This document shows positions 13,681 through 54,577 of a stretch of 64,000 nucleotides of DNA, piece by piece (position 1 is the stretch's first letter; the number at the start of each line of letters is the position of its first letter). The translations under genes and the position numbers were made by a program. Source of the stretch: Octopus vulgaris (lineage: Eukaryota); the NCBI GenBank assembly GCA_951406725.2, contig OX597823.1:35960001-36024000 (forward strand), written 5' to 3'. The notes under the pieces are model-generated. The model was not told the origin of the DNA. It searched no databases and worked only from the letters and a program-made list of their open reading frames with translations.

Positions 13681-14010
13681 TGTGTATTTTTCCAATGTGT
13701 ACAGATAACAAGCAAAAAATATAGATAGTTACCAGGGTAGCAAAAAATATAGATAGTTACCAGGGTAGCAAAAATTCACATAAGTGCCAAAGATATTACA
13801 GCCTATTTATAAAGGTAGAAATTCCAGGGTTAAGTGAAATGTTTTGTATAACATGAATAAATTAAGAAATGGAGTCAAGCGCAGGTGTTATTCAAATCAT
13901 TTATACTTCCAGTATATGTTTCGAAGAACGCATTGAGCTTATTCCGGTGGGAATAAAAATGATGTAAAACAATGCGATCATCTCGTCAGGGGAAAAAGAG
14001 AAACAAAACA
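13681..14010 (-). mobile_element. Penelope-like pseudo-LTR-type repeat (family A) carrying a hammerhead motif
   Basis: Reverse-complement homolog of 53390-53700. Abuts a microsatellite and contains a hammerhead core. The PLE origin is inferred. Confidence 0.65.
13905..13996 (-). ncRNA. Type I hammerhead-like motif, long stem II (family A), cleavage triplet degenerate
   Basis: Minus strand: UUCCC-CUGACGA-GAUGAUCGCAUUG...CAAUGCGUUCUUC-GAAAC-AUAU-ACU-GGAAGU. Confidence 0.65.
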
Positions 14011-14099
14011 CATCAGTAACCCATTTTAACAGGTAGGTTTGAAGGATTAGGAATAAGCTGAATAAAAATAAGTCTTGAAATATGGTGGTGACAAAATGT

Positions 14100-16000
14100 T
14101 TGAACTCTTAAATATATTAATTTGTCACTGTTGGAGAACTGAGATAGTGCCTCAAGACTAGATTGATGCCATTTTAGCCTCCTTGTATAAATCGGGGCCA
14201 AAGTAATTTTCGTGGGATTTCGCTTTTGTCTGTGTTTGGAAAGGTACTTGCCTACATTTTGTTAGAACGTTTAAATACCTTCATAGTTCCAAATATAGTG
14301 TCTGAGTCTCAGTGTGGTTTTCGTTCCTCCAGGGGCACAACTGATTGTATAACAAGAAAAGTGCATTGAACAGAATCTTGCTCTATACCATTGCTTTGTT
14401 GATTTGAGCAAAGCATTCGATACCGTTAATCGAAATGCTCTGTGGCTAATTCTAAGGAAAATAGGCTGTCCAGAAAACTTTGTAAACCTGATCAGGGCTT
14501 TGCATCAAAATATGAAAGCCAGAGTTAACTTTGGTGGGAGGCTCTCTGAATATTTTGCCGTGGAAAATAGAGTAAAGCAAGGAGACCTTGATGCACCCAC
14601 TCCCTTTGCAATATACTTTGCAGTTGTGTTGTTGCATGCTTTTCAAAACTCTGAGGAGGGTATTTACATAAAATATCGAACAACAGGGAATGTTTTTAAT
14701 CTGACCAGACTGTAATTCAAAACGATGGTTTTTACTTCACTCATTAGGGAACTTTTATATGCTGACGATTGCGATATTATCAATCATTCTGAAACAGGTC
14801 TTCAATCTCTTGTGTCTGCATTTGACTTAGCTTGTGATGATTTTGGCTTGACCATCGACTTAAAAAAAAAACAGTTGTAATGCATCAACCTGCGTGTGGT
14901 GTTGTTTGTAACCCCACTAAAATTTTTGTTATGGGTAAGTTACTTGAGGTTGTCGATTCGTTCATCTACTTTGGAAGCTCTGTACAAAATGATGGAAAAC
15001 TTGATACAGAAATACATCTGCGAATTCAAAGGGCAGCAAAAGCATTTGGTGGCTTGGAGTCACGCATTTGGTGCCAGCAACATATAAATAAGAATACAAA
15101 GCTGGCTCTTTACAAATCATTTGTCTTACGTTCCCTGTTGTATTCTTGTGAAACATGGACTTATGAAAGGCATTTTAAATTGTTAGAACAATTCCACCAA
15201 AATTGTCTTCATCGCATTTTAAACATAAAATGGAGTTCTTTTACTCCAAACACAGATGTCCATGCATCTGATGCCTGCAGATCACATCAATTAAAGCTAT
15301 GATTTTGAGAAACCAAATGAGATAGTGTGGCCATATTGCTCGAATGGTGGATGAACGCATGCCGAAACAGCTGTTTTATGATGAGCATGTAGAGGGGAAG
15401 CACTACTGGCCCAAACCTTAAAAAAATGGTTTAAGGACGGCATAAGGACTACTATGAAATCACTTGGAACGGATCCAGAAGACATAGAAACCCTTGCTTC
15501 GGATAGAGCTGGATGGCGAACAAAAGTGTGGAATGGAATGAAAGCGTTTGAAGAGGCCAGGATAACGCATGTAAGACTCAAATGAGATTTAAGGAAGAAT
15601 GTTACGATCGAGAAGGCGAATGACAATGTCCTTTTTGTGCGCACAGTTTGTGACAGACCGTGCCTTTCCTTTGCTGGGCTCAAATCTCATTTGCGAACCC
15701 ATGGAAAACAAACCTTCACCAACTATTCTGCCTATATGTCTGTGCACACTTTTGAATGCAGTGTATGCCAGAAGGCTTGCAAATCTAACGGAGTCCTCAA
15801 AGGACATTTTAAGATCCACAAAGATCGGAACTTATCTGCAGCTCTTGGTGGACCAAATCGGATGTGCAATGTATTTGGATGTCTGTTCAGAACATTGTCT
15901 GGTTTTAAAAAAACCATATCAGATGCAATGATCGTTCTAAAGAGTAGGTACAGGTGGTCACACTCTGCATAAGGAGTAGACAACCACTATATATGTATGT
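14100..16000 (+). mobile_element. 5'-truncated RTE-clade LINE with C-terminal C2H2 fingers
   Basis: NFRGISLLSVFGKV, FVDLSKAFDTVNR, VKQG, ELLYADDC, LLYSCETWT, then three CxxC...H repeats and a (TATG) tail. Confidence 0.9.
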
Positions 16001-52254: not shown

Positions 52255-53165
52255 TCCCCTTCTATTTCATTAAAGGCTTCGAGTAATATGTCTCTAAATC
52301 TCTGTCCATTCACAGAATCTTTAAGCTTCCAGACCCTTCTCCTCCATGCTGGTCATCTGGGCATCCACTTAGCCCTGATCCTGAAGTCACTAACTACCAG
52401 CCTATGTTGTGGGGTACATTCTTCTCCTGGGAAGGTTTTGGCATTTATAAGCAGCCACCTTTCCCTTTTTCTGGCGAGGATGTAGTCAATTTGGCTAGTG
52501 TGTCTGCCAGAACAGTAGGTGACTAGGTGATTGGCAGGTTTCCTGAAGTTAGTATTGCAAACCATAAGATCATTTGCATCACAGAACTCCAGCAGCCTGG
52601 TTCCTTCCTCATTGCAGGAACCAAAGCCGTAGCCTCTATGTACGCCATGGAAGCCCCCTGTATTTTGTCCAACATGTCCATTGAAGTCACCAGCCACAAA
52701 GAGAAGGTCCCTGTCATTCGTCAACAAGGTAGTCTGCAAGAGGGTGTCATAAAATCAGTCTTTCTGTCCATTGGGTAGCTGAGGGGCATAGGCCAAGATA
52801 ATTGTTGCTAACCCATGATGAAGCACTAATCTAATCTTAAGTATTCTGTGACATACTCTGACTATCTCGATTACCTTATCCACCCATTTCTCCACAAGAA
52901 GTACACCCACGCCCCGACCCTGTCAGTGTTCCCTGCCCAGAAAAATCTTGTACCTGCGTTCTTTGCCTGTGAGGAACCTAGTGGAACCTCCTCTCCACCT
53001 TACTTCTTGGAGGCAGCACATATCAACACATCTCCATTCAGGCATCTCAACAATCTCACCAGACCTATCTTTCAGTGTGCCGACATTGAAAGTGCCAACC
53101 CTGAGGTGTGGGAGGTATGGGCCCGTGAGACCCTGGGACGGGGGACAGCAACGTCATGTACCTGA
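52255..53165 (-). mobile_element. RTE LINE APE-endonuclease fragment
   Basis: VGTFNVGTL, AGDFNGHVG, NEEGTRLLEFC, SQIDYIL, QHRLVVSDF. Confidence 0.88.
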
Positions 53166-53417
53166 AAAGAAAGCTCACATTGGCAAAAACACACCTTTAG
53201 TTCATATAAGTAATCTCTATTATTATATATAATTTAAACATTAATTTTCTTTTTATATTTAACATTCACTAAAAAAGTAGCCCTCCTCTTTCTATAGGCT
53301 ACTTCTGATATTATATCATATAACGTTTTTTCAAACAATATTAATAGCGTTCAGTAAATCACTATACATATCCATCATTTTCTGTTAAAATGTCTTATTG
53401 ATGAGTTTCATTTCTTC

Positions 53418-53505
53418 ACTTCCCTAAAGAGAAGATTACATTGTTTTACACCATTTATTCCTTTGGAATAATATCAGTGAAATCTTCGAAACATGTGTCG
53501 GAAGT
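53418..53505 (+). ncRNA. Type I hammerhead motif, long stem II (family A), core G5 mutated
   Basis: Stem I ACUUCC/GGAAGU (6/6); core CUAAAGA; stem II GAAGAUU/AAUCUUC (7/7) spanning 57 nt; GAAAC-AUGU-GUC cleavage triplet. Lies within the 53390-53700 repeat. Confidence 0.75.
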
Positions 53506-53699
53506 AAAAGTATTTGAATTATACCTGTGTTAAACTTCATTTATTTATGTATATATTATACAAAAAATTCCACGTAAACTCGAAGTTTCTACCTTTAAAA
53601 CAAGGAGTTACAACCTCTTTACTTGTGTGATTTTTTGCTATCCTGGTAACTATTTATCTATTTTTTCCATGTTAATTGTTAACAAGGGAAAATACACTC

Positions 53700-53743
<44 letters not shown>

Positions 53744-54236: not shown

Positions 54237-54577
54237 GTAAAAAAAATACAAACTGGGACAAGAACGCAAAACACCTAGAAGACGATACAAAAAACACGGA
54301 CGGGACATTCGAAGCCTTCAATCTTCAGTCAAGAACCGGATCATCCTCACAATTTCGGCATGTATGTATTTATATGTAAATATGTATATATATATATATA
54401 TATATATACACATACATATATACATACGTACATACATACCTACATATATTTATATAAATATATATATATATACACACACATTATGTGTTTGTGTGTGTGT
54501 GTATGTATAATATAATATAATATAATATAATATAATGTAATATATTTAATACAATATAATATAATGTATATGTAAAG

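What the first reader, a model, noticed from the sequence alone, without database searches (positions are those of the whole stretch)
53418..53505. Hammerhead family A with a 57-nt stem II; two copies complement each other to an intact consensus
Seen: the 53.4 kb (+) copy has perfect stems I and II and a GUC triplet but core CUAAAGA. The 13.9 kb (-) copy has the intact core CUGACGA but a decayed triplet. Both retain an apical UUAUUCC/GGAAUAA hairpin with different loops, plus a CAUUG/CARUG helix. Known: Penelope-like pseudo-LTRs carry type I hammerheads, usually minimal with short stem II and a palindromic stem III. Inference: this is an atypical extended-stem-II hammerhead family that standard length-limited searches could miss.
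Basis: partly seen in the sequence, partly recalled or inferred. Interest (0 to 1): 0.7.

Follow-up and report, generated by a model that had tools for sequence, protein, structure and literature searches.

The report
Long-armed hammerhead of Penelope-like retrotransposons
This is a mutated copy of a likely self-cutting RNA motif with an unusually long side arm, carried in the tail of a jumping gene that has thousands of copies in this genome; such motifs are known in these elements, and the two copies in the window belong to separate subfamilies that are each complete without the other.

Summary
The motif is real: a type I hammerhead with a 57-nt domain II at 53418-53505 and a 60-nt one at 13.9 kb. 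Both are 5'-truncated 3' ends of a Hydra-like Penelope-like retrotransposon lineage. Longer relatives carry RT and C-terminal GIY-YIG in one open frame of 778 codons, with 2.86-kb units and pseudo-LTRs. A long-arm core pattern has 5,331 exact genomic matches (control 0). The long arm (52-61 nt, against about 25 nt at most in 26 published Hydra rows) is kept across subfamilies, with compensatory changes in 7 of 13 helix II pairs, and Rfam misses it. 'Complementation' is wrong. The two copies are 74% identical and come from different subfamilies. Each subfamily is intact by itself (CUGAAGA/GUC; CUGACGA/GUU), and each window defect is private decay. Cleavage is untested, and copies do not start at the cut site. 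Three extras stand out: the youngest subfamily has a U4C core; the lineage lacks the Hydra CxCx5C linker yet still abuts (TA)n; and arms end at two fixed sites. The scan noted long-armed Hydra hammerheads before on other DNA. Verdict: new variant of a known kind, moderate interest.

The parts
53177..53706 (+). 5'-truncated 3' end (pseudo-LTR region) of a Hydra-like Penelope-like element, subfamily A
   Evidence: 92% identical to a longer ORF-bearing copy from 53177 on; 83% to the intact-ORF copy L087
53178..53213 (+). last 11 codons and stop of the element's RT-endonuclease ORF
   Evidence: sequence; matches the C-terminus of the ORFs
53418..53505 (+). type I hammerhead: helix I 53418-23/53500-05; core 53424-30 with a private G5A change; GAAA 53488-91; predicted cut after 53499
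53431..53487 (+). 57-nt domain II: 12-13-bp basal helix with a mismatch, asymmetric internal loop, apical hairpin 53455-53471
53491..53498 (+). helix III, 2 bp plus tetraloop; the 8-mer is self-complementary, so it can extend in a dimer
   Evidence: duplex -6.0 kcal/mol; natural variants -7.0 and -10.3
53707..53739 (+). (TA)n abutting the element's long 3' end, about 200 nt after the cut site
   Evidence: family pattern
13682..14033 (-). second, older 5'-truncated copy (subfamily B) with a short internal duplication near its 3' end, followed by a tetranucleotide repeat
   Evidence: 90% to a longer ORF-bearing subfamily B copy
13906..13994 (-). subfamily B hammerhead: core CUGACGA 13989-13983, 60-nt domain II, triplet decayed to ACU (subfamily majority GUU)

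Best explanation
The stretch is a mutated, likely inactive copy of the type I hammerhead motif that sits in the 3' UTR/pseudo-LTR of a high-copy, Hydra-like Penelope-like retrotransposon lineage, whose subfamilies all carry a long, branched domain II. Shown: linkage to an RT + C-terminal GIY-YIG ORF, the 2.86-kb unit with one hammerhead per pseudo-LTR, the conserved core, the compensatory changes in helix II, 5' truncation, and (TA)n flanks. Inferred mechanism: read-through transcripts of partial tandems carry two hammerheads. With only a 2-bp helix III and a competing hairpin over the core, a lone motif would cut weakly. Efficient cutting likely needs pairing of two self-complementary helices III, or help from the element's protein, and would trim precursor RNA to unit length. 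Cutting is probably not needed for each insertion: reverse transcription appears to start downstream at two fixed sites (about +50 and +200), primed from nicks in (TA)n. The long arm is under structural selection and most likely serves as an independently folding handle for folding or protein binding; its role is untested.
For: ORF linkage: RT (YRDD) and GIY-YIG upstream of the motif in subfamily A and B copies. Open frames of 778 codons in L087-L089, with cut sites 2,862-2,863 nt apart in L087, L088 and L093. Copy number: 3,494 and 2,224 first-look candidates; 5,331 pattern matches, control 0. Domain II was 52-61 nt in all 138 motifs collected (the collecting pattern itself required about 49-61 nt). 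In 10 UTRs (9 found through the protein, 1 by DNA search; none through the core), 9 of 11 core positions are invariant, against 16 of 58 in domain II and 22 of 152 upstream. Helix II: 7 of 13 pairs change on both sides. Over the whole structure 51 such cells were seen, against 22.6 in shuffles and at most 28 when slid. All three loop III variants tested are self-complementary, and monomer helix III probability is at most 0.17 in 11 of 11 copies. Two 3' ends: 26 of 46 arms end at +40 to +70 and 17 of 46 at +170 to +230; 7 of 8 two-armed loci have one of each. Literature: dimer requirement for weak helix III (PMC4209133, PMC7229834); protein-assisted cleavage and internal RT initiation in a Poseidon element (PMC11167929).
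Against: No cleavage evidence. 0 of 30 loci begin at the cut site, and only 2 of 24 break points read by eye in 100 listed copies fall within 2 nt of it, about 2 being expected by chance. Helix I probability reaches 0.5 in only 3 of 11 copies. The number of pairs with a two-sided change (10) does not exceed shuffles (9.7; 285 of 500), and RNAalifold recovers only 8 helix II pairs at -0.05 kcal/mol. The 26 rows were chosen by me and are related, and R-scape was not run. The apical hairpin is conserved rather than covarying (1 of 7 pairs). The youngest intact-ORF subfamily has U4C, G10.1-U11.1 and GUA, so catalysis may be attenuated. The Hydra CxCx5C linker is missing (0 of 7 ORFs).
Confidence: 0.8

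Rival explanations
1. The hammerhead fold is kept mainly as a structural signal (protein binding or positioning of RT initiation), and catalysis is vestigial in this lineage.
For: The youngest mobile subfamily has U4C plus a G-U closing pair. Insertions do not begin at the cut site. In a Poseidon element catalytic mutants did not affect insertion in vitro (PMC11167929).
Against: Catalytic positions stay invariant across subfamilies whose UTRs have diverged widely. Triplet changes stay within GUH (GUC, GUA, GUU). U4C is described as retaining enough activity in vivo for a viroid (PMC3088659).
Confidence: 0.25
2. The motif belongs to a small non-autonomous retrozyme or SINE that replicates as a circle, not to the protein-coding element.
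For: Most copies are short and have no ORF. One locus has two copies 250 nt apart (L034). Retrozymes are proposed to derive from PLE pseudo-LTRs (bioRxiv 10.64898/2026.07.22.740005).
Against: The window copy begins inside the ORF's last codons. 5' ends are scattered from +20 to -681. Longer copies run continuously into RT and endonuclease sequence.
Confidence: 0.05
3. The two window copies act together (trans-complementation) to form an active ribozyme.
For: Hammerheads with weak helix III can work as dimers, and one copy has an intact core while the other has an intact triplet.
Against: They lie 39 kb apart on opposite strands, are 74% identical and come from different subfamilies, each of which has many fully canonical copies (19 of 33 and 12 of 34).
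Confidence: 0.01

Closest known systems
Hydra-clade Penelope-like elements and their hammerheads, incl. Hydra-1_Obim (Craig et al. 2021, PMC8557442; passages, sections 6 and 11, supplement search and part 2 of 59 read)
   Same: C-terminal GIY-YIG without CCHH; DKT; CxxC and CxH around the conserved E and N; unit under 3 kb; (TA)n flanks; sense type I hammerhead near the 3' end; inverted truncated arms.
   Different: Domain II is 52-61 nt and branched, against about 25 nt at most in the 26 Hydra rows of File S2 (Hydra-1_oBim: 7-bp stem, 8-nt loop). The CxCX5C linker is replaced by an Asn-rich stretch; RWK reads RWL; the hammerhead sequence is unlike that of Hydra-1_oBim.
PLE-X1_sMoe hammerhead (spike moss; File S2 of PMC8557442)
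   Same: A PLE hammerhead with a 53-nt domain II (9-bp stem, 35-nt loop), marked as deviating from canonical.
   Different: Unrelated plant, endonuclease-less Chlamys-type element with the motif near its 5' end; no covariation analysis seen in the rows I read.
Minimal metazoan PLE hammerheads (Cervera & de la Pena 2014, PMC4209133; parts 1-2 of 4 read)
   Same: Located in pseudo-LTRs, weak palindromic helix III, larger-than-usual helix II, many dispersed truncated copies, presumed dimer activity.
   Different: There helix II is 7-8 bp, usually with an extra base after A9. Here there is no such base, helix II is 12-13 bp, and it carries an internal loop and a further hairpin.
Poseidon PAc of green anole (Frangieh et al. 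2024, PMC11167929; parts 1-2 of 4 read)
   Same: Hammerhead upstream of the RT start sites; two fixed 3' ends; no sign that genomic or RNA ends fall at the cut site.
   Different: There the two start sites are a short tail apart (30-40 bp in the paper's description) and lie inside the ORF. Here the two ends are about 150 nt apart and both precede the start codon.

Membership tests
type I hammerhead ribozyme | core C3 U4 G5 A6 N7 G8 A9 / G12 A13 A14 and NUH triplet | tested here: met
   Met for the family (19 of 33 subfamily A and 12 of 34 subfamily B copies fully canonical). Not met in either window copy (G5A; ACU triplet).
type I hammerhead ribozyme | three helices around the core, helix I open-ended | tested here: met
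   helix I 83% paired, helix II 83%, helix III 96% of cells
type I hammerhead ribozyme | tertiary contact between domains I and II (loop-loop or pseudoknot) | tested here: inconclusive
   No recurrent, covarying pairing between the domain II internal loop and the flanks in 13 representatives; non-canonical contacts cannot be seen this way.
type I hammerhead ribozyme | site-specific self-cleavage | not testable with these tools
   No raw RNA reads were offered; genomic 5' ends show no cut-site peak.
EN+ Penelope-like element | single ORF with RT and GIY-YIG endonuclease | tested here: met
   [quoted passage not shown] Pfam gave no significant family.
EN+ Penelope-like element | partial tandems (pseudo-LTRs), inverted 5'-truncated arms, hammerhead in the pseudo-LTR | tested here: met
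   783-nt direct repeat at 99.5% in L087; inverted arms in L087, L089, L093, L096, L101, L105
Hydra clade (Craig 2021) | DKT motif; CCHH absent; CxxC and CxH flanking E and N | tested here: met
   DKT in both ORFs that reach that far; the CxxC..E..N..CxH pattern in 5 of 7 ORFs; CCHH absence read by eye
Hydra clade (Craig 2021) | length under 3 kb and (TA)n insertion | tested here: met
   unit 2,862-2,863 nt; 42 of 46 arms end in a TA repeat
Hydra clade (Craig 2021) | CxCX5C linker between RT and endonuclease | tested here: not met
   0 of 7 own ORFs against 51 of 54 full-length homologs; hence filed as Hydra-like, not as a canonical member
Hydra clade (Craig 2021) | RWK motif | tested here: not met
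   reads RWL in the one ORF where the motif was recovered
Hydra clade (Craig 2021) | placement in the clade by RT phylogeny with named references | not tested
   The tree (quick method) holds only unnamed homologs and one Argonauta protein; the 7 own ORFs form one long-branched group (support 100).
non-LTR retrozyme | non-coding tandem units of 150-400 nt, each with a type I hammerhead | tested here: not met
   The copies are truncations of a coding element.

The most novel reading that the evidence does not exclude
The long branched domain II is a lineage-specific RNA module that docks the element's RT-endonuclease and sets two internal start sites for reverse transcription (about +50 and +200), used from both ends of a break in (TA)n. 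It arose in a lineage that lost the zinc-binding linker thought to steer (TA)n targeting, and it lets even a U4C-attenuated ribozyme stay mobile. This would separate the hammerhead's structural role from its catalysis and overturn the linker-targeting association.
Probability: 0.15. Interest if true: 0.65.

Novelty: new variant of a known kind. Interest (0 to 1): 0.36.

Why it matters
Why Penelope-like elements keep hammerheads is an open question. This lineage offers thousands of copies, about ten subfamilies with natural core and arm variants, and young copies with open frames, so one can test cleavage, protein dependence and the role of the arm side by side. It also shows that length-limited searches undercount animal hammerheads. 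And it is a possible counterexample to the proposed link between the Cys linker and (TA)n targeting. The single window copy is itself an ordinary decayed insertion.

Tried and rejected
Rfam: no hammerhead among the 150 of 192 matches shown for the window; 0 hits at gathering score on 5 loci holding canonical-core copies. Pfam: no significant family for 4 ORF pieces or 3 long ORFs. Cut-site signature in genomic 5' ends: absent. Pseudoknot from the internal loop to the 5' flank: an apparent 6-bp match near -36 in three representatives did not hold across subfamilies and was rejected. Expression: no RNA holder listed on record. Runs guessed to be RNA were contigs only, so they show no ends, strand or level; one contig runs 16 nt past the cut site of the C1 copy, too short to count as bridging. 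Retrozyme and trans-complementation readings were rejected as above. A genome-wide count of the U4C subfamily was not obtained. The careful tree did not finish; the quick tree is used. Lunse et al. 2017 on PLE hammerhead variants is not held and is known to me by recall only; it may list long-arm or U4C variants. PMC3376415 passages gave nothing relevant. PMC13282606 (Octopus vulgaris repeat annotation) mentions Penelope-like elements but not hammerheads, ribozymes or Hydra in its main text; its supplements were not read.

Full report
Observation. The window shows at 53418-53505 a type I hammerhead layout with helix I of 6 bp, core CUAAAGA, a 57-nt domain II, GAAA, a 2-bp helix III with loop AUGU and a GUC triplet. 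The copy on the minus strand at 13.9 kb has core CUGACGA, a 60-nt domain II and ACU at the triplet. The two are 74% identical over 295 nt. Rfam shows no hammerhead among the 150 of 192 matches listed for the window, and none on five loci that hold canonical-core copies.

What it belongs to. The genome has 2.80 Gb in 227 contigs. I infer an octopus-like animal from this, from the microsatellite load and from the one informative species name among the protein hits (Argonauta). Each window copy has thousands of first-look candidates (3,494 and 2,224). Relatives share a fixed 3' end before a simple repeat and are cut at variable 5' points, often with an inverted arm. [quoted passage not shown] A protein search of the genome found open frames of 778 codons. 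L087 has a 783-nt direct repeat at 99.5% around the ORF, with one hammerhead per repeat, and cut sites lie 2,862-2,863 nt apart in L087, L088 and L093. This is the pseudo-LTR layout of Penelope-like elements (PMC8557442 section 6).

Clade. The protein has DKT, lacks CCHH and carries CxxC and CxH around the conserved E and N, as described for the Hydra clade. It lacks the CxCX5C linker (0 of 7 ORFs, against 51 of 54 full-length homologs), has an Asn-rich stretch of 68-161 residues instead, and reads RWL for RWK. In a quick tree of 53 proteins (7 own, 45 of the 54 full-length homologs, plus the partial Argonauta protein) the own ORFs form one long-branched group beside the three closest homologs. 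No named reference was in the tree, so I call the lineage Hydra-like. Still, 42 of 46 arms end in a TA repeat, although the paper links the linker to (TA)n targeting.

No complementation. Among 33 motifs from the 30 best relatives of the 53-kb copy (itself included), 23 read CUGAAGA, 29 read GUC and 19 are fully canonical. Among 34 motifs from the relatives of the 13.9-kb copy, 20 read CUGACGA or CUGAUGA, 24 read GUU and 12 are fully canonical. The window's G5A and ACU are private decay, and the second subfamily's triplet is GUU, not GUC.

The long arm. A degenerate pattern with a 51-61-nt domain II has 5,331 exact matches and 0 in the control; it undercounts decayed copies. The 138 motifs collected had domain II of 52-61 nt, within limits set by my pattern, and fall into about ten subfamilies. 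Nine UTRs reached through the protein and one through DNA similarity all carry the long arm. In them 9 of 11 core positions are invariant, against 16 of 58 in domain II and 22 of 152 upstream. On 26 copies chosen by me to span the subfamilies, 85% of cells pair and 7 of 13 helix II pairs change on both sides. Cells with two-sided change number 51, against 22.6 in shuffles and at most 28 when slid. Against this: the count of pairs with two-sided change does not beat shuffles (285 of 500), the rows are related, the apical hairpin is conserved more than covarying, and RNAalifold finds only 8 pairs. All 26 Hydra rows in File S2 of PMC8557442 have a domain II of about 25 nt or less, but PLE-X1_sMoe has 53 nt, so a long arm has precedent in a plant element. 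My searches found no paper describing this animal long-arm family. Lunse 2017 was not held, and most supplements were not read.

How it likely works. Helix III is 2 bp with a tetraloop; its probability in a monomer is at most 0.17 in 11 of 11 copies, and the three loop variants tested are self-complementary 8-mers. Such motifs cut weakly alone and better as dimers (PMC4209133 parts 1-2; PMC7229834 section 15). In several intact-core copies the 5' strand of helix I is predicted to fold back on the core, whereas the mid part of helix II forms in 9 of 11. This would fit protein-assisted cleavage as in the Poseidon element PAc (PMC11167929). There catalysis was not needed for insertion and no reads ended at the cut site. 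The same holds for genomic ends here: 0 of 30 loci start at +1 (some loci are two arms of one insertion), and 2 of 24 break points read by eye among 100 listed copies lie within 2 nt, about 2 being expected. The 3' ends instead fall at two sites: 26 of 46 arms at +40 to +70, 17 at +170 to +230, one just beyond +70 and two undefined. 7 of 8 two-armed loci have one short and one long arm. I infer two internal RT start sites primed from both sides of a break in (TA)n; this is not shown directly.

Core variants. The youngest subfamily, 98-99% identical and with open frames, reads CCGAAGA (U4C), G10.1-U11.1 and GUA. U4C is said to lower activity considerably in vitro yet to support viroid infectivity (PMC3088659 passages). 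The lineage may therefore tolerate weak catalysis.

Earlier notes of this scan. They describe long-armed hammerheads in Hydra-like ends in this and another genome, and two-armed insertions in retrozymes. None matched this sequence. They are not independent support. I took from them the cut-site test (negative here) and the term two-armed.

Verdict. A real, decayed hammerhead of a Penelope-like element; a long-arm variant of a known association; the complementation idea fails. Interest 0.36.

Noticed in passing
L137:1350-1680 (G000:C1 near 299.5 kb): A short inverted two-part insertion with a fully canonical long-arm hammerhead. Contigs of two runs guessed to be RNA (X1, X13; different organism codes and studies) carry its unique junction and private letters, whereas the probable DNA run X15 mostly reads the family letters and X8 barely covers it. 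Contig depth cannot give expression level, but this is the first locus to test with raw reads.
   Followed up: partly
L140:1490-1530 (G000:C14 near 80.006 Mb): In run X1 the contig holding the L137 junction continues into sequence that matches this C14 site (1 mismatch in about 30 nt), where the assembly shows no element. Chimera, polymorphic copy or misassembly; unexplained.
   Followed up: partly
L087, L088, L089, L093: Youngest subfamily with open frames of 730-778 codons carries a U4C core, a G-U closing pair of helix II and a GUA triplet.
   Followed up: partly
L087:3295-5619 and six related ORFs: The Cys linker typical of Hydra elements is replaced by an Asn-rich stretch, yet copies still abut (TA)n.
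   Followed up: partly
window 53300-53330 and 53635-53650; alignment: Short UTR motifs are kept across distant subfamilies: a TGACG-containing word about 110 nt upstream of the core (resembles a CRE site, by recall), an ACTCCATT word near +40, and a small GCTACCC-N-GGTA hairpin near +140.
   Followed up: no
window 54240-54360 (-): A different repeat in which GAAA precedes CUGAAGA on the minus strand; it may be one of the permuted hammerhead candidates noted elsewhere in this scan.
   Followed up: no
window 14013-15302 and 52353-53165: Both window copies sit next to fragments that look like decayed LINE ORFs (RT-like at 14353-15302, endonuclease-like at 52353-52754; names by recall).
   Followed up: no
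L034:998-1360: Two identical long-arm hammerheads of another subfamily 250 nt apart in tandem, a natural dimer candidate.
   Followed up: no
L090:2734 (-), L091:7235 (+), L106:7512 (+): Unrelated hammerhead-like motifs with 25-, 32- and 13-nt domain II from other repeat families.
   Followed up: no
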